Source: a virus
Lineage: Duplodnaviria > Heunggongvirae > Uroviricota > Caudoviricetes
Length of the DNA stretch: 7,908 nt
Virus record (IMG/VR): IMGVR_UViG_2563366990_000018
Strand: one strand, 5' to 3'
This document shows positions 1-7,492 of the stretch, piece after piece. The notes below the pieces were generated by a model. That model was not told where the DNA came from. It saw only the letters and a program-made list of their open reading frames with translations, and made no database searches. Each line of letters starts with the position of its first letter. The stretch's first letter is position 1. Position numbers and translations under genes: made by a program.

Positions 1-672
1 TTATTCCTGTGCCCAGCCAACCCTGTATGCCAGTATCTCATCCGCACTGGTCAGCTTTTCCAGCTCTTTCTTCATGGTGCGCTGCCGGACGTGGATTTCC
101 ATCCCTTTGGTGAACATCGCCTGCTCTGCCGCTTCACTCAGTGCTATAAGCTCTTCTGCTGTCACCTCCACATCATTGTTTTCCGCATCCGTCCAGAAAA
201 ACGCCTCCGGCAGTTTCCCCGATTTCGCTGCCGCCACCGACGGCTCAAGACGCGTCTGCGTTGACTTCCCGTAGTCCCATTTACGCCCATTGTGCTCAAA
301 CGTGTAGTTCGCCGCTTCCATCGCATTACGCCAGGCGTTAATTTCATCGCCCTTCATCCCTCGCGCTTTCTCCGCGGTCAGCAGGTCCGTGATTTTCTCC
401 CCGTCAAAACCCCAGCGCCCCGAGATGTCAGCTTTGCGGTTTTCTTCCGTATCCGCCACCTCCACCACACTCTGGCCCACTGGCCACAGAACTGATGCCA
501 CCCTGCTGATGCCGGTAATGACCCCGGCACTGTTATAAACCACCTTCAGCGTCTCTGCTGAAAATAACGACTGACACTCATACCAGTCCTGACCATCCTC
601 TGATTTCAGGTACATCGCACCCGGCACATCCGGATTTTCCGGCGTGTATTGTCTGAAATTCTTTATGTGCAT
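1..672 (-). CDS. tfa: Phage tail fibre assembly protein (Tfa-family chaperone), 223 aa
   Basis: Complete ORF: ATG at 670-672 on the minus strand with a GGGAGGA Shine-Dalgarno upstream, TAA stop at 1-3. The N-terminal ~100 aa (SEDGQDWYE ... VVEVAD ... RKADISGRWGFDG) match my recollection of the Tfa / P2 gpG tail-fibre assembly family. It lies 41 nt downstream of stf, as tfa does in lambda. The C-terminal ~110 aa could not be placed from memory. Confidence 0.8.
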   Translation of the reverse strand: MHIKNFRQYTPENPDVPGAMYLKSEDGQDWYECQSLFSAETLKVVYNSAGVITGISRVASVLWPVGQSVVEVADTEENRKADISGRWGFDGEKITDLLTAEKARGMKGDEINAWRNAMEAANYTFEHNGRKWDYGKSTQTRLEPSVAAAKSGKLPEAFFWTDAENNDVEVTAEELIALSEAAEQAMFTKGMEIHVRQRTMKKELEKLTSADEILAYRVGWAQE

Positions 673-2441: not shown

Positions 2442-2454
2442 GGATTTCCCCCAT

Positions 2455-2488
2455 AAAAAAACCGCAGTACCGGTTTCCCGGCCTGCGG
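2455..2488 (-). terminator. Rho-independent terminator on the minus strand, ending the putative Hok-like transcript 13 nt before the stf start codon
   Basis: Stem ccgcag(ta)ccgg / ccgg(c)ctgcgg (2462-2488) with a tttc loop, followed on the minus strand by a run of 7 T (plus-strand A-run 2455-2461). Confidence 0.55.
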
Positions 2489-2517
2489 TAAAATTTGTGG
2501 TTTGTTGGTGTTAAAAC

Positions 2518-2583: not shown

Positions 2584-2724
2584 TTACTGCTTACACTGTA
2601 AGAACGCCGCAATCTCCGCGCCCGCTATCCGGAACCGGAACTCGCACAGTGAACTGTGGGTGATCCAGATAATGAGCACTACCGTGATACAAATCACGGT
2701 GGTTTTTAACGGTTTTTGCGACAT
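2584..2724 (-). CDS. Hok/Gef-family-like type I toxin, 46-aa small hydrophobic peptide (MSQKPLKTTVICITVVLIIWITHSSLCEFRFRIAGAEIAAFLQCKQ)
   Basis: Hand translation of the minus strand, too short to appear in the ORF track. ATG at 2722-2724 with an AAGGAG Shine-Dalgarno 8 nt upstream, TAA stop at 2584-2586. Hydrophobic N-terminal helix followed by SLCEFRFR...EIAAF, which matches the Hok-family signature as I remember it (Hok: [21 protein letters not shown]). Confidence 0.55.
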   Translation of the reverse strand: MSQKPLKTTVICITVVLIIWITHSSLCEFRFRIAGAEIAAFLQCKQ

Positions 2725-2800
2725 AACGCTTGCTCCTTTTACGGAGAGGCGCTAACCTTCTTCTTGCTGAAGGAAGAACGTCAGGCCTCGGGTTAAACAT
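2591..2800 (-). CDS. mok-like overlapping reading frame (69 codons) spanning the Hok-like ORF in another frame
   Basis: ORF-track entry. It starts 76 nt upstream of the Hok-like start and ends 7 nt before the Hok-like stop, the same geometry as mok/hok on plasmid R1. No sequence similarity is claimed; it could be a chance ORF. Confidence 0.25.
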   Translation of the reverse strand: MFNPRPDVLPSARRRLAPLRKRSKRYVAKTVKNHRDLYHGSAHYLDHPQFTVRVPVPDSGRGDCGVLTV

Positions 2801-2848
2801 GAATGTTTGTCCGGGGCCTTCGTCTTTCCGGCCTTCAGGTGTTCCCTC

Positions 2849-2872
2849 CGGCCATCAGCCAAAGGCACCCGC
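2849..2872 (-). other. 5' element of the long-range complementary pair (tac-like), partner at 2518-2540
   Basis: See partner feature. Confidence 0.35.
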
Positions 2873-2921: not shown

Positions 2922-5900
2922 TCAGCGGATACTGATCCCCGCGCTGTTTTTCTTCACCACTATCGCCTGAAGGTTACTGATACGTGAACTGCCAAAACTC
3001 CCGTTCTGACGCCGTGAACTTACGGTAAAACTCAGGGTGATATGACCACCTCCGGCTGGCATATCGATGATCCCGCTGAAAATTCCCGGCTCTGTCACTG
3101 ACCTGCCGGAATAAATCCGGCGTCCGTTCTGATCAACATGCAGGAAGCACTCTGTCCAGATGTCATTACTGGTGCGGGATTCCTGTTTTGACCCGACATA
3201 GATTATCGGCGGGATTATAATCTGCCGGTCAAAGCTGTGATCGTCATACACCGTCAGCGTTCGTGTACCGTTCGCAAGGTAACTACCATCCACCGGAAAA
3301 GCCACCCCTGCACATTTCACAAGATCACCAATAATGTTCTCCGCTTTCAGCGTGCCATTTATCGTACAGTTCTCCGCTATCACGACATTATTCAGCGTGC
3401 CCGAGTTCGCACTGATATGTCCGCTGATGTCAGCATTGCGGGCCGTCAGCCTGCCCTCCGGCGTCAGGGAGAACGTCGGGGGATTGCCGGACGAGGTGAT
3501 GCTCACTGCAAACAGTCGCTTCAGGAACACGTCGTTCATGAACAGCTGATTCCCCTGCGCCACAAACAGCGGCGTGGTGTTGCCGTTCTCCGGGTTAATC
3601 ATCGCGATACGGTCCGCCTGCAGCAGTATATTGCTCAGGGGCTGGCCATCAGCATCCTCAATCCCCGCACCAATACCGGCAACATACGGAATGCCGTTTT
3701 TCGTTTTCTGCACCTTCAGCATGTACAGCGCAGCCAGGTCGTTATTTGTGTCTGCCTGCACCCGCTGTATCTGCTGTATGGTGGCACTCTGGTCTTCCAG
3801 GGTTTTACTGACCGTCTGCGTGATTTCATTGCGGGTTTCTGTGATGGTGGTCTTCATCTCCGCCATCTCATCATCAAGCTGGCTGTTATCAATCAGCTCC
3901 CACATCCCCTGTGCCAGATGTGTCTTCCCGATTTCTCCTCTGAAAAAGTCCAGATACCCTTCTGCATCATTGCTGGCCCGGCCACTGGCTTCCACAAACG
4001 CAGATTTCCCCACCAGATTGACGCTGCGCACATAAAACCAGAAATCCTTCCCCGGCTTAATGTGCGGGCCGGAGACACTCCACTGGCGGCCTGTCCCCAG
4101 ATAACGGGCAGAGGTTTCCACCTGAGATGTGTCTGCGATTTTTGCCTCCGAAAACCAGAACTCAAACTGTACCGTCGGGTCATACACCGTAAGATGCGGG
4201 ACCGCCGTTATCTGATAATACCCCGGCGTCAGTTCAATGCTGGCCGGTGCTGCCGGTGCGTTAATCCGGAACGTGGTGGTGGCAGGTTCGCCCTGCTGGC
4301 CGTAGCTGTTTATCGCCCTGACCGTCAGGGTGTATTCCCCCAGAGGCAGGCCACTGAAACGGTGCTCCGTGTCGGCAGTGATGGCGGTGGTCACCAGGCG
4401 GCTGTTTTCACCACTGCCACTGGTCAGGCGCAGACTGAAGCGCACGCCCTTCACCACCCGCGGCGTGTCCCATTTCGCCAGCGCCAGATACTGGCCGTCT
4501 GAGGCACTCACCTCCACCGTGAGGTGCTGCACAGCCGGCGGGATGACGCTGTTCAGTGAACCGGACATCGGCTCAAAGCGGGCCCCGTTATCCACGATGG
4601 CTTCTTTTTCCGGTACGTGCTGCACTGCCGTGATGGCAAAGGTGCCGTCCGTGTTTTCCCGGATGGAAACACAGCGGAACAGGCGACGACGCAGTGACGG
4701 CAGGGAGAGTCCCCACACACCGTATGCCTCCACGCCATCCGGCAGGGCGCTGACCTGTATCCGGTCCGGGGCGGGGTGTGCAGTGATGTCCACGCGCACC
4801 GGCTTACCGCTGCCGTTAATCAGGTTCACCGTCGATGTACCTGTCTCCGGCAGTGTCACCTCACGGTCCAGCGTCAGTGTGCGGCTGGCGGCATCGATGG
4901 ACAGGATACGTCCGCCGGTCAGGGTCCCGGCATAGTCGTTATCACAGATTTCAATGATGTCACCGGGCGTGTGCCGCAGCCCCTGTGACCCGAGCGTGAA
5001 ATCCACCGTCTGCGTTTCCAGCAGTTCTGTCTTTATTACCCACAGTCCGGCACGGTGGGCCTGACCGCGGCTGGTACAGCCGAACGCGTCCATCTTCAGC
5101 AGGTTGCGCCCGTAGCGCAGGATGGCGTCCGGGTCTTCCACCAGTTCCGTGGAAGTCTGCCAGCCGTTCTGCGGGTCGGTGTAATTCACCTCCACCGCCG
5201 TGTGCCGGTCCTTCAGGGCACTGAAGCTGTAGCGGAACCCCACGCCGTTATCATCCACCACCACATCGCTGTTGGTGTAGGGCCACACCACATCCGACGG
5301 ACGGTCCTGAACGAACGTCAGCGTCTGGCCGTTCCATACCGGCATACAGCGCATCGCCGAGCAGAAATCCCCCAGAACATCCCAGACCTTACGCTGCTGT
5401 GACAGGTACGCATTGAAGGTCATCCGCGGCTCTGTTCCCCCGAAACCATCCGGGACCGTCTGGTCACAGTACTGCCCGATGGCATACAGTGCCCACTTGT
5501 CCACATCCGCGGCCCCCAGGCGTTTTCCCATCCCGTAGCGCGGGTGGGTCAGCATGTCCCACAGGCACCAGGCCGGGTTATTGCTGTATGCCGGTTTCAG
5601 ACTGCCGTCCCAGATACCGCTGTAGGTGCGTTTTTCCGGGTCATAGTTTGACGGCACCTGAATGATGCGACCACGGATATGGTAGTTCACCGTCAGCTGC
5701 TGGCCACCAAACTGCTCCGCATCCACCTGCAGCCCCACAATGGCCGTGTTCGGGTAGCACTGTTTCACATCGATGATTTCGGTGTATGACGACCACAGCG
5801 TTCTGTTCTGCAGCTGGTCCGTGGTGCTGTCCGCCGTCTCCCTGACCATCCGGATGTTAAAGGGGCGCTCAGGGAGATTATTCAGAATCACCGACGTCAG

Positions 5901-6389
5901 GTACTGCGAGGTGGTCTTGCCGTTAATGGTGACATCCTTCTCCGTCACCCAGTGCCCGTTACGCTCAAGCTGAATCAGCAGGCGGACAGAAGAGGGATTA
6001 CGGTCACCCTTTGAGGTGGTCTCCACCAGTGACTGCACCCCGAAGGTGACCCGCAGACGGTCAATGTTCGCTGACGTGATGGTGCGCGTCACCGGCTTTG
6101 CCTTCGTCACCTCCACGCCCAGTGCGGTTTCTGCCCCGGAGGACTCAAAGCCTTCCGGCGGTGTCTGCTCCTGCTCCCCGGCACGCCAGACGGCGGTCAC
6201 ACCGTGTATCACGGGATTACCGTCCGTGTCCGTCAGCGGGGTTTTGTTCACCAGAATACTCTGCAGTCCCTTCACCGGACCTTCCACCGGTCCCTCACCA
6301 ATGGCATCAATCACGCTCATCATCTGCGTGGATTTGAGATTGTCCTTCGCCTCACGCGGTGTGTGCCCCTTGCCGCCCCCTTTACCCAC
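2922..6389 (-). CDS. J: Tail tip attachment / host specificity protein J (central tail fibre), 1155 aa
   Basis: Collinear similarity to lambda gpJ as I recall it, from the N-terminus ([22 protein letters not shown]...) to the C-terminus (...[11 protein letters not shown]); the middle region (around [12 protein letters not shown]...) is divergent. GTG start at 6387-6389 with a GGAGAGGGGGA Shine-Dalgarno; upstream in-frame stop at 6465-6467; TGA stop at 2922-2924. Confidence 0.95.
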
Positions 6390-6430
6390 TCTGTCCCCCT
6401 CTCCTGTCTGATGTCTGAATCTGTTTATGC

Positions 6431-6462
6431 CAGAAAACGACAGGCACCCCGGAGGGTGCCTG
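6431..6462 (-). terminator. Intrinsic terminator-like hairpin on the minus strand, about 50 nt upstream of the J start
   Basis: Perfect 9-bp stem caggcaccc / gggtgcctg with a 4-nt loop (6441-6462), followed on the minus strand by TCGTTTTCTG. Confidence 0.45.
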
Positions 6463-6476
6463 TGTCATGACGGAAT

Positions 6477-6513
6477 AAAATTTCTGAAATTCTTCACATT
6501 TCCGGCAAATTCC
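6477..6513. repeat. Box A: 37-bp direct repeat (aaaatttctgaaattcttcacatttccggcaaattcc), copy 1
   Basis: 34 of 37 positions identical to box B at 6656-6692, including a 22-nt perfect block; the copies are 179 bp apart. Confidence 0.85.
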
Positions 6514-6597
6514 CGTGGAGGAAACCTTGCCGGATGGGTAGATTACCTGCGGTCAATAAAAGCAATTAATCGCAACTCCTTAAGGTGACTATTCGTT

Positions 6598-6641
6598 CCT
6601 CCCGTTAATATCCAGGTGTATTGCGGGAGCGTTTTTTATTT
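6598..6641 (+). terminator. Weak terminator-like structure on the plus strand at the end of unit A
   Basis: cctcccg ... cgggag stem (6598-6629) with possible inner aata/tatt pairing, followed by GTTTTTTATTT. An alternative hairpin gcgggagc / gctccgc (6623-6650) lies around the T-tract. Confidence 0.3.
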
Positions 6642-6655
6642 CAGCTCCGCAACAG

Positions 6656-6692
6656 AAAATTTCTGAAATTCTTCACACTTCCGGCAATTGCC
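6656..6692. repeat. Box B: 37-bp direct repeat, copy 2
   Basis: See box A. Confidence 0.85.
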
Positions 6693-6772
6693 TGTAGCCG
6701 CAATAATGACGCTGCGTTACTGTTCTTCTGCCCAAAAAAATAACTCCATAACGTTAATCTTCATCGTTATTT

Positions 6773-6807
6773 CCCGCAGCTCCGCTAACTCTGCGGGATT
6801 TTTTTTT
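6773..6807 (+). terminator. Rho-independent terminator on the plus strand, antisense to the late operon; its T-tract runs up to the gene I stop codon
   Basis: 7-bp stem cccgcag / ctgcggg (6773-6797) with an 11-nt loop, followed by a run of 9 T (6799-6807) and then ATTTTT. Confidence 0.5.
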
Positions 6808-6811
6808 ATTT

Positions 6812-7492
6812 TTATCCCCGCCCGATAACCACCACTTTCCCGTCTCCGCCCTCATCACGGGTGCTGATGTCCTGGGATATCCGTCGTGAACCAACCAGCA
6901 TTTCACCATAAGGCACCGGCATAGGGTTACCCTGGGCAATCATGTTGTCCAGTGACGAAAAATACGTGTTCTGTTTACCGTTATCCGTACTTTTGTACTC
7001 CGGCGTCTTTGCCTTCGGGGCCAGCATCTGGGCCACACCACCCAGTATCATGCTGACACCCAGTGAGAACAGCATCGTGGTGGCAGTCAGCCCTCCGGCA
7101 CTCAGGGCTGCGCCCCACAACGCCATCGTTGCGCCGCCGGTGAAGAAAGAGCCCACGATGGCTGCTACCCCCAGCACCACCTGAAAAACACCATTTCCCC
7201 CGGCTCCGGCCAGTCGCGGTACAATGTGGATGACCGCTCCCTCACCCAGTTGTTCGTGAAGACGGGCGTACACTGCCTCCGGTGCGGTATCCTCACCGGC
7301 AATACGTATCTGGTACCAGCCTTCGTTCATCTGACCGCGGAATCCCGGCACCTGCAGCGACAGGGCACGGATGGCCTCCGCTGCCGTGTTCACATACAGG
7401 CTGATGCGGCGACCAAATCGTTGTAAATCCCCGTGAAGGCAGATGCGGACCAGTGGCGGTGACGCCAGACAGAATGCGTTCGTCGTTGCCAT
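6812..7492 (-). CDS. I: Tail assembly protein I, 226 aa
   Basis: Strong similarity to lambda gpI as I recall it (ARICLYGDLQRFGRRI..., GAVIHIVPR, KQNTYFSSLDNM). Its 5' end overlaps the 3' end of K by 103 nt, as in lambda. Confidence 0.9.
   Translation of the reverse strand: MATTNAFCLASPPLVRICLHGDLQRFGRRISLYVNTAAEAIRALSLQVPGFRGQMNEGWYQIRIAGEDTAPEAVYARLHEQLGEGAVIHIVPRLAGAGGNGVFQVVLGVAAIVGSFFTGGATMALWGAALSAGGLTATTMLFSLGVSMILGGVAQMLAPKAKTPEYKSTDNGKQNTYFSSLDNMIAQGNPMPVPYGEMLVGSRRISQDISTRDEGGDGKVVVIGRG

What the first reader, a model, noticed from the sequence alone, without database searches (positions are those of the whole stretch)
6390..6811. Expanded non-coding I-J spacer with two tandem box-plus-stem-loop units antisense to the late operon
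The I-J gap is about 420 bp, against roughly 60 bp in lambda, and has no ORF longer than 15 codons on either strand. It is organised as two tandem units on the plus strand. Unit A is box A (6477-6513) followed by a stem-loop and TTTTTTATTT (6598-6641). Unit B is box B (6656-6692, 34/37 identical to A) followed by a stem-loop and a run of 9 T (6773-6807). Both units are about 155-165 bp from box start to T-tract end. This looks like a pair of small non-coding transcription units, or duplicated regulatory modules, inserted between tail-tip genes. I do not recognise the box sequence.
Basis: seen in the sequence. Interest (0 to 1): 0.65.

Follow-up and report, generated by a model that had tools for sequence, protein, structure and literature searches.

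The report
Tandem PasB-family prophage small RNA genes
The long gap between tail genes I and J of this lambda-like prophage holds two side-by-side small-RNA genes: one is a close relative of a known Hfq-dependent small RNA (EcOnc22 / PasB) and the other is a diverged, undescribed paralogue, so the finding is real but mostly already known.

Summary
The I-J gap is 422 bp (60 bp in lambda). It contains two plus-strand units, each with a conserved box, a -10-like hexamer and an intrinsic terminator, antisense to the tail operon.

Unit B (about 6730-6807) is 91% identical to the I-J spacer sRNA of O157 Sakai prophages Sp15/Sp14/Sp11 (EcOnc22/23/24; Northern about 85 nt, destabilised without Hfq). 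It is 74% identical to PasB of EPEC E2348/69 (83 nt, Northern and RIL-seq), which lies at the same position and in the same orientation.

Unit A (about 6551-6637) has the same promoter layout and core motif but a different terminator hairpin. It is only about 60% identical to unit B and has not been described.

In related prophages the same spacer holds one to four such cassettes. In some, a sodC gene replaces the box and keeps only the 3' part of the sRNA.

The box reads TCTGA-N6-TCACATTT. Its half-sites are invariant and its spacer varies across 64 distinct units. It is centred about -60.5 from the predicted start, so I infer a CRP-type class I site. This is untested.

The claim of no ORF above 15 codons is wrong but does not matter. 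Interest is modest: a known sRNA family, plus a new paralogue and a new array arrangement.

The parts
2922..6389 (-). Gene J (tail tip / host specificity protein), context only
   Evidence: 1155-aa ORF. Matches the Pfam Ig_J, FNIII-A_GpJ, Phage-tail_3 and Ig_GpJ_C families.
6812..7492 (-). Gene I (tail assembly protein I), context only. Its stop codon lies 4 nt from the end of the unit B T-run.
   Evidence: 226-aa ORF. Pfam Lambda_tail_I, E = 3.3e-16.
6440..6463 (-). Conserved GC-rich hairpin (ACAGGCACCC-NNNN-GGGTGCCTGT), terminator-like on the tail-operon strand. It belongs to the ancestral I-J junction, not to the sRNA cassettes.
   Evidence: Terminator scan. Folds at -24.4 kcal/mol, z = -5.1. 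Present in all 28 distinct leaders, with C-G to T-A covariation. The 60-bp lambda I-J gap has an analogous hairpin followed by TTTTG on the late strand.
6480..6501 (+). Box A: a 22-bp CRP-like site, ATT TCTGA AATTCT TCACA TTT, centred at about -60.5 from the predicted unit A start
   Evidence: Across 64 distinct units the half-sites are TCTGA in 62 and TCACA in 64, while the N6 spacer has 8 variants.
6539..6544 (+). Predicted -10 hexamer of unit A (TAGATT)
   Evidence: It is in the same register as the TAnnnT hexamer found 40 nt after TCACA in 62 of 64 distinct units. The upstream TATAAT-like hexamer present in most units is degenerate here (AACCTT, 6523-6528).
6551..6637 (+). Predicted sRNA A (about 87 nt), a PasB-like paralogue of the 'T2' class. 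It has an A-rich ARN stretch (6555-6566), the core AACTCCTTAAGGTGACTATTCGT (6574-6596), a terminator hairpin (6599-6629) and T6 (6632-6637).
   Evidence: Fold. Alignment to related units. Covariance model R1, built from T1-class units only, scores it 16.2 bits, E = 0.05. Full-length copies at 99% identity occur in 27 of 5426 E. coli genomes. T2-class units are the only unit in some spacers (L005, L020, L022).
6642..6653 (+). Junction scar CAGCTCCGCAAC, which resembles the 5' half of a T1 terminator, between unit A and box B
   Evidence: Repeat family D3, 6630-6650 versus 6765-6785. Direct reading of the sequence.
6659..6680 (+). Box B: a 22-bp CRP-like site, ATT TCTGA AATTCT TCACA CTT, centred at about -60.5 from the predicted unit B start
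6718..6723 (+). Predicted -10 hexamer of unit B (TACTGT). A second -10-like hexamer, AATAAT, lies upstream at 6702-6707.
   Evidence: In E2348/69 the annotated PasB 5' end falls 6 nt after the equivalent hexamer.
6730..6807 (+). Predicted sRNA B (about 78 nt), the EcOnc22 / PasB orthologue. It has an A-rich stretch, the core AACTCCATAACGTTAATCTTCAT (6742-6764), a terminator hairpin (6772-6798) and T9 (6799-6807).
   Evidence: 91% identical to the Sakai Sp15 spacer sRNA and 74% to PasB. The reverse complement of the PasB Northern probe matches 6777-6799 at 20 of 23 positions. Fold z = -3.45. R1 scores it 89 bits, but this unit is in the model.

Best explanation
The I-J spacer of this Stx-phage-like lambdoid prophage carries two tandem small-RNA genes on the strand antisense to the tail operon. 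Each has its own promoter and its own terminator.

**Shown**
- Homologues of unit B, at the same position and in the same orientation, are real sRNAs of about 83-85 nt whose stability depends on Hfq. These are EcOnc22/23/24 in O157 Sakai and PasB in EPEC E2348/69. PasB forms Hfq-bound chimeras with many mRNAs.

**Inferred from the sequence**
- Each unit is transcribed in the lysogen by host RNA polymerase from a weak promoter. It has a TAnnnT -10 hexamer and no recognisable -35.
- The promoter is helped by an activator bound to the box. The box reads TCTGA-N6-TCACATTT, a near-consensus CRP site, centred about -60.5 (class I geometry).
- Transcription starts near G6551 (unit A) and G6730 (unit B) and stops at the intrinsic terminators.
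- The RNAs have the parts of Hfq-binding sRNAs: an A-rich ARN-type 5' stretch, a single-stranded pyrimidine-rich core (AACUCCUUAA..GU.A.U.UUC.U), and a terminator hairpin with a poly-U tail.
- They most likely act in trans, pairing the conserved core with host or prophage mRNAs, plausibly at ribosome-binding sites.

Unit A is a diverged paralogue with a different terminator hairpin. The two-unit state is one form of a variable cassette array of one to four units at this junction. The array grew by recombination between prophages.
For: **Position and orientation**
- PasB (NC_011601.1, 1466343..1466261, minus strand) lies between I (ends 1466255) and gpJ (starts 1466496).
- The EcOnc22/23/24 peaks fall in the I-J gaps of Sp15, Sp14 and Sp11, on the strand opposite the tail genes.
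- The AgvB1 position shows that Tree-2014 coordinates run about 138-145 nt below NC_002695.2 numbering. After that correction the EcOnc22 peak starts at gap position 162-169. The predicted start is at 162 (arithmetic).

**Homology**
- Unit B is 91% identical to the Sakai sRNA and 74% to PasB.

**Experimental data on homologues**
- Northern about 85 nt, destabilised in a delta-hfq strain.
- 83 nt by coverage and Northern; log2 fold change -6.8 and -2.4 in delta-hfq; 37 RIL-seq interactions.

**Promoter geometry across 64 distinct units**
- The order is box, 24 nt, upstream hexamer, 10 nt, then TAnnnT. This register holds in 62 of 64 units.
- Variation in the box is confined to the N6 spacer.
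- PasB is higher in static overnight LB than in DMEM, while the CRP-repressed sRNA Spf changes the opposite way.

**Structure**
- The terminator stem is conserved, with one compensatory G-C to A-U change.
- Terminator folds give z = -2.5 (unit A) and -4.0 (unit B).

**Arrays**
- Unit counts per spacer were 0, 1, 2, 3 and 4 in 10, 58, 5, 1 and 5 of 79 I-J spacers respectively. These are the window, IMG/VR loci and a few reference records.
- Four-unit arrays occur in 67 and the window-type two-unit array in 36 of 5426 complete E. coli genomes.
- Linkers between units are remnants of I 3' ends.
Against: - There are no expression data for this window or for any unit A-type (T2) copy.
- Unit A lacks the TATAAT-like upstream hexamer present in most units (AACCTT instead). 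Its T-run is set 2 nt away from the stem. It scores only 16 bits against a model of the T1 class.
- The start site is inferred from a coverage-based 5' end, not from mapped primary 5' ends.
- If the upstream TATAAT were the real -10, the box would be centred at -44.5, which is out of phase for CRP.
- The left half-site is TCTGA, not TGTGA. CRP binding is untested.
- RIL-seq gave no common target motif for PasB: there is no PasB entry in Table S7. The seed is therefore an inference. In unit B the CUCCUU motif reads CUCCAU.
Confidence: 0.75

Rival explanations
1. Only unit B is a working sRNA gene. Unit A is a recombination relic, a chimeric decaying copy that is poorly transcribed or not transcribed at all.
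For: - Unit A has lost the strong upstream -10-like hexamer (AACCTT versus TATAAT, AATAAT or CATAAT in 43 of 64 distinct units).
- A scar of a T1 terminator half lies right after it.
- Its specific sequence occurs full-length in only 27 of 5426 genomes, all at about 99% identity, so there is no evidence of long-term selection.
- It is absent from the deposited phage and plasmid collections.
Against: - The box, the in-register TAGATT hexamer, the conserved core and a stable terminator with T6 are all intact.
- Related T2-class units are the only cassette in some spacers (L005, L020, L022). They are also kept inside 3- and 4-unit arrays.
Confidence: 0.2
2. The RNAs act mainly in cis. They are fully complementary to the I-J intergenic part of the late tail mRNA. 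They pair with it, or their transcription collides with late transcription, to tune J expression or to silence leaky tail-gene expression in lysogens.
For: - The genes are always antisense to the tail operon at this junction.
- The position is fixed, next to the I stop codon.
Against: - The RNAs do not overlap the J ribosome-binding site or any coding sequence.
- PasB forms Hfq-bound chimeras with 37 partners elsewhere in the genome.
- Lambda and the sodC-carrying variants function without the cassette.
- This role could coexist with trans action.
Confidence: 0.12
3. The boxes and hairpins are DNA or RNA control elements of the late operon, such as factor-binding sites, attenuators or mRNA stability hairpins. 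They are not separate genes.
For: A conserved terminator-like hairpin on the late strand does exist in the spacer, at 6440-6463.
Against: - That hairpin is separate from the units and is also present in the 60-bp lambda gap.
- The unit terminators have their T-runs on the plus strand only.
- Homologous units give discrete plus-strand RNAs.
Confidence: 0.03
4. The spacer encodes small proteins, for example the 53-codon ORF at 6427-6588.
For: Mechanical ORFs of 40-61 codons overlap the gap.
Against: - The 53-codon ORF spans the hairpin and the promoter box.
- Its ATG is missing from many related leaders.
- Frames are broken by frequent indels among units.
- No ribosome-binding site is apparent.
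Confidence: 0.02

Closest known systems
EcOnc22 / EcOnc23 / EcOnc24 of E. coli O157:H7 Sakai (Tree et al. 2014, PMC4104026)
   Same: - Same locus (I-J gap of lambdoid prophages Sp15, Sp14 and Sp11) and same antisense orientation.
- The transcribed region is 91% identical to unit B.
- Same box, hexamers and terminator.
   Different: - Sakai spacers are 240 bp and hold a single unit.
- The window has an extra 179-bp cassette (unit A) inserted on the J-proximal side.
PasB of EPEC E2348/69 (Pearl Mizrahi et al. 2021, PMC8550237; Zhu, Shabalina & Storz 2026 preprint)
   Same: - Same locus, orientation and promoter geometry.
- Same terminator stem, CCCGCAG...CTGCGGG, followed by a U-run.
- Same conserved core upstream of the terminator, which the preprint proposes as the seed.
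   Different: - Only 74% identical to unit B and about 58% to unit A. The 5' region and the terminator loop differ.
- The preprint reports no tandem copies (minimum pasB-pasB distance 28 kb), no promoter analysis and no T2-type paralogue.
Tandem sRNA paralogues such as OmrA/OmrB (E. coli) and PrrF1/PrrF2 (Pseudomonas); stated from general knowledge
   Same: Adjacent paralogous Hfq-dependent sRNA genes, each with its own copy of the same regulated promoter and its own terminator.
   Different: - Those pairs are fixed chromosomal pairs.
- Here the copy number varies from 1 to 4 between prophages, and sodC variants keep only the sRNA 3' part.
- The units are far more diverged, with two terminator classes.
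- The array sits inside a phage structural operon.
Prophage anti-sRNAs AgvB / AsxR (Rfam RF02702, RF02703)
   Same: Prophage-borne, Hfq-binding RNAs with a conserved 3' part and a variable 5' part. They are expressed from lysogens.
   Different: - They sit at a different site (the moron site 3' of PR').
- They are 51-60 nt long and have an unrelated sequence.
- No Rfam hit falls in the spacer.

Membership tests
PasB / EcOnc22-24 sRNA family | Encoded in the I-J intergenic gap of a lambdoid prophage, antisense to the tail operon, with the 3' end next to the I stop codon | tested here: met
   In the window the unit B T-run ends at 6807 and the I stop codon is at 6812-6814. PasB and EcOnc22 have the same layout.
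PasB / EcOnc22-24 sRNA family | Sequence homology of the transcribed region to the published sRNAs (unit B) | tested here: met
   91% identical to the Sakai Sp15 sRNA and 74% to PasB. The PasB probe matches at 20 of 23 positions.
PasB / EcOnc22-24 sRNA family | Sequence homology of the transcribed region to the published sRNAs (unit A) | tested here: inconclusive
   58-60% identity. Model R1 gives 16.2 bits, E = 0.05. The promoter layout and the core motif are shared.
PasB / EcOnc22-24 sRNA family | Terminator hairpin CCCGCAG-loop-CUGCGGG followed by U7-9 | tested here: met
   Met for unit B (6772-6798 plus T9). Unit A does not meet it: it has a different hairpin, CUCCCGU...GCGGGAG (6599-6629).
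PasB / EcOnc22-24 sRNA family | A discrete transcript of about 83-85 nt whose stability depends on Hfq | not testable with these tools
   Shown only for the homologues.
CRP class I-dependent promoter | A 22-bp site matching TGTGA-N6-TCACA | tested here: inconclusive
   - The core matches at 9 of 10 positions (TCTGA-N6-TCACA), and the right flank TCACATTT is perfect.
- Half-sites are invariant and N6 is variable across 64 units.
- The pattern occurs twice in the window against 0.06 expected.
- The consensus is taken from general knowledge. No binding data exist.
CRP class I-dependent promoter | Site centred near -61.5 relative to the transcription start | tested here: inconclusive
   The site is centred at -60.5 from the predicted starts (6551 and 6730), and at -59.5 to -61.5 from the coverage-based PasB 5' end. 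The start site has not been mapped at nucleotide resolution.
CRP class I-dependent promoter | Transcription depends on cAMP-CRP | not testable with these tools
   Indirect evidence only: PasB is higher in LB than in DMEM, while Spf changes the opposite way.
Hfq-binding sRNA module (terminator hairpin preceded by a U-rich stretch and followed by poly-U) | A 3' hairpin, at least 6 U downstream, and a U-rich single strand upstream | tested here: met
   Both units meet it. The definition is from general knowledge (Ishikawa et al. 2012, cited in PMC4104026).
Any Rfam 15 family, including AgvB, AsxR, Esr41 and STnc100 | Covariance-model match in 6390-6811 | tested here: not met
   Rfam 15 gave no match in the spacer at E <= 1. 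The only significant hit in the window is sok, at 2713-2870.

The most novel reading that the evidence does not exclude
The I-J junction of Stx-type lambdoid prophages is an expandable array of one to four paralogous Hfq-sRNA genes, with sodC-carrying variants that keep only the sRNA 3' end. All cassettes are driven by the same CRP-type box, but they differ in 5' region, terminator loop and even terminator class. Unit A represents an undescribed T2-class sRNA. Arrays grow by recombination that drags in I 3'-end remnants. This would let a prophage multiply and diversify a carbon-source-responsive regulatory output.
Probability: 0.45. Interest if true: 0.5.

Novelty: new member of a known kind. 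Interest (0 to 1): 0.35.

Why it matters
PasB / EcOnc22 is among the more abundant Hfq-bound prophage sRNAs in EPEC and EHEC, and its function is still unknown. This work adds three things:
- The gene has a rigid, probably activator-dependent promoter.
- It has diverged paralogues that BLAST-based surveys missed.
- It occurs in arrays of up to four cassettes in about 1% of complete E. coli genomes, mostly STEC.

Together these give concrete handles for experiments: crp and glucose tests, box mutants, and probes for each paralogue. They also mean that sRNA repertoires of STEC prophages are undercounted. None of this changes the basic picture, which is a prophage moron encoding a trans-acting sRNA.

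Tried and rejected
- **Rfam.** Rfam 15 at E <= 1 found nothing in the spacer.
- **AgvB / AsxR anti-sRNA idea.** Rejected. Those lie 3' of PR' and have an unrelated sequence.
- **Unit A in other collections.** Its specific sequence was not found in the deposited phage collection or in plasmids.
- **TTCACA as the -35 element.** Rejected. It lies 24 nt from the TATAAT-like hexamer and 40 nt from the downstream hexamer.
- **Upstream TATAAT-like hexamer as the working -10.** Considered less likely for three reasons. It predicts an RNA of about 99 nt, against 83-85 nt observed. It is degenerate in three unit types. It also puts the box at -44.5. It may still be a second promoter.
- **Strand of the 6440-6463 hairpin from wobble pairs.** Mixed result. 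Three variant types favour the tail-operon strand and one favours the other. The lambda comparison favours the tail-operon strand.
- **Third box-like match at 652-667.** It has 3 mismatches and lies inside a coding region, so I treated it as chance.
- **PasB RIL-seq target list.** Not read. The table is too large for the remaining look-ups.

Full report
**Context.** The window is part of the tail region of a lambdoid prophage, with the genes on the minus strand. In order they are K (NlpC/P60, 7390-7818), I (6812-7492), J (2922-6389), a hok/sok module, a side tail fibre gene (714-2441) and a DUF4376 tail-fibre assembly gene (1-672). The I-J gap is 6390-6811, 422 bp. In lambda the same gap is 60 bp.

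**Observation.** The two boxes are real. The 16-mer TCTGAAATTCTTCACA occurs exactly twice, against 0.04 matches expected at up to three mismatches. Both stem-loops fold at -13.2 kcal/mol (z = -2.5 and -4.0) and are followed by T-runs on the plus strand only. The one wrong detail is 'no ORF above 15 codons'. ORFs of 40-61 codons overlap the gap, but they are not conserved.

**Identification.**
- Rfam has no family here.
- BLAST shows that the spacer is common. About 780-800 of 5426 complete E. coli genomes carry it, with a median of three copies per genome. In Stx phages such as VT1-Sakai it is about 240 bp and holds one unit.
- The literature supplies the identity. Table S6 of Pearl Mizrahi et al. 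places PasB (83 nt; Northern probe AATCCCGCAGTGATCGCGGAGCT) at NC_011601.1 1466343..1466261 on the minus strand. That lies between tail assembly gene I (ends 1466255) and gpJ (starts 1466496), antisense to both.
- The reverse complement of the probe matches window 6777-6799 at 20 of 23 positions.
- Table S2 of Tree et al. lists EcOnc22/23/24 in Sakai Sp15, Sp14 and Sp11, with a Northern size of about 85 nt and destabilisation in delta-hfq. All three peaks fall in the I-J gaps of those prophages, on the strand opposite the tail genes.
- The AgvB1 position shows that Tree's coordinates run about 138-145 nt below NC_002695.2 numbering. After that correction the EcOnc22 peak starts at gap position 162-169. 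My predicted start is at 162.
- Unit B is 91% identical to the Sakai sRNA and 74% to PasB. Unit B is therefore an orthologue of a known, validated, Hfq-dependent sRNA.

**Anatomy of the family.** I collected 80 IMG/VR loci with J relatives and several reference loci. From these I extracted 94 cassettes, 64 of them distinct. The layout is rigid:
- AATAAAA, then TCTGA (62 of 64), N6 (eight variants), TCACA (64 of 64) and TTT.
- 24 nt.
- A TATAAT-like hexamer, which is good in most units but degenerate in three unit types, including unit A.
- 10 nt.
- A TAnnnT hexamer, in register in 62 of 64.
- 6 nt, then a purine.

The annotated PasB 5' end falls 6 nt after the downstream hexamer. I therefore take the downstream hexamer as the working -10. 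This puts the starts at G6551 (unit A) and G6730 (unit B) and centres the box at -60.5.

The box is a near-consensus CRP site: 9 of 10 core positions match, and the right half with its flank, TCACATTT, is perfect. The consensus is from general knowledge. Invariant half-sites, a free N6 spacer, the absence of a -35 and the class I distance together make cAMP-CRP activation the best guess. PasB is higher in static overnight LB than in DMEM, while the CRP-repressed sRNA Spf goes the other way. That fits CRP activation but does not prove it.

**The RNAs.**
- RNAalifold on 28 T1-class RNAs finds only the 7-bp terminator stem. The stem is almost invariant, with one compensatory G-C to A-U change. 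The terminator loop is highly variable, about 9-16 nt.
- Upstream of the stem lie a conserved single-stranded core (AAYUCCUUAAnGUUAAUCUUCRU) and an A-rich stretch with ARN-type triplets.
- The 2026 preprint also places the likely PasB seed just upstream of the terminator.
- The CUCCUU part resembles the 3' end of 16S rRNA, so pairing with Shine-Dalgarno regions is plausible. It reads CUCCAU in unit B, and no RIL-seq target motif was reported. I rate this step as inference only.

**Unit A.**
- It belongs to a second class (T2) with the hairpin CUCCCGU...(A/G)CGGGAG and the core CUCCUUAAGGUGACUAUUCG.
- T2 units are the only cassette in some spacers (L005, L020, L022). They are also units 1 or 2 of 3- and 4-unit arrays.
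- The window's version has an intact box, an in-register TAGATT hexamer, a stable terminator and T6. It lacks the upstream TATAAT-like hexamer.
- It scores only 16 bits (E = 0.05) against a model built from T1 units.
- The full-length sequence occurs in 27 genomes at about 99% identity. It is absent from the deposited phage and plasmid collections.
- It is probably a functional paralogue, but that has not been shown.

**Arrays.** Of 79 I-J spacers counted (the window, IMG/VR loci and a few reference records), 58 hold one cassette, 5 two, 1 three and 5 four.
- In another 10, a 175-aa Cu/Zn superoxide dismutase gene (sodC) replaces the box. It keeps the last ~95 nt of the sRNA as its 3' end.
- Four-unit arrays occur in 67 and the window-type two-unit array in 36 of 5426 complete genomes.
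- The ~60-nt linkers in 3- and 4-unit arrays translate to I C-terminal remnants (DIGGRGQKISGRV* versus DEGGDGKVVVIGRG*). The arrays therefore grew by recombination between I-J regions.
- In the window there is instead a half-terminator scar at 6642-6653.
- The preprint on Pas sRNA distribution reports no tandem copies (minimum pasB-pasB distance 28 kb) and does not discuss promoters. The arrays, the T2 class and the box analysis appear to be new, though incremental.

**The J-proximal hairpin (6440-6463).** It is conserved with covariation and is terminator-like on the tail-operon strand. It has a counterpart in the 60-bp lambda gap. It belongs to the ancestral junction, not to the cassettes. 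Its role is unknown.

**Verdict.** One unit is a known sRNA (EcOnc22 / PasB family). The other is a new, diverged member. Mechanism steps:
- Shown: homologues are Hfq-dependent sRNAs of about 83-85 nt with many Hfq-bound partners.
- Inferred: expression of both units in this window, CRP control, the seed and the mode of action.

Noticed in passing
window 2713-2870 (-): A hok/sok-type toxin-antitoxin RNA module (Rfam sok RF01794, 63.7 bits, E = 1e-12) lies between J and the side tail fibre gene.
   Followed up: no
window 2453-2493 (-): An intrinsic terminator, CCGCAGGCCGGGAAACCGGTACTGCGG plus T7, lies on the tail-operon strand. Its stem resembles the PasB terminator and gave a weak hit to model R1 (11.5 bits).
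   Followed up: no
L025 (also L028-L031, L051, L057, L069, L084, L086), I-J gap of 851 nt: In these prophages the I-J gap carries a Cu/Zn superoxide dismutase gene (sodC, 175 aa, Pfam Sod_Cu E = 3.9e-32), antisense to the tail genes. It replaces the box but keeps the last ~95 nt of a PasB-like sRNA, terminator included, as its 3' end. This raises the possibility of a 3'-UTR-derived sRNA.
   Followed up: partly
L003 1096-2010; L014, L017, L019, L021 (four units); L011 and L004 (three units): Arrays of three or four diverged cassettes with a 217-232 bp period. The ~60-nt linkers between units are remnants of I gene 3' ends. In L004 an IS66 element is inserted in the third unit, truncating it.
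   Followed up: partly
window 6406-6419; L013 and L014 leaders: The heptamer GTCTGAT/GTCTGAA, just upstream of the J start, is present in 2 copies in the window, 3 in L013 and 4 in L014. It is a small variable-number repeat in the J 5' leader.
   Followed up: no
L210 (lambda 15445-15504): The 60-bp lambda I-J gap contains a hairpin (AACCGCC-TGCG-GGCGGTT) followed by TTTTG on the late strand. It is analogous to window 6440-6463, so this terminator-like hairpin predates the sRNA cassettes.
   Followed up: partly
window 6702-6707 and equivalent positions in other units: A second, often perfect, TATAAT-like hexamer lies 16 nt upstream of the predicted -10. It is conserved in most units but degenerate in unit A. 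It may be an alternative promoter giving a 5'-extended isoform.
   Followed up: partly
window 652-667 (+): A third, weaker box-like match (TCTGAAATTCTTTATG, 3 mismatches) lies inside the 5' end of the ORF at 1-672 (-). It is probably chance.
   Followed up: partly
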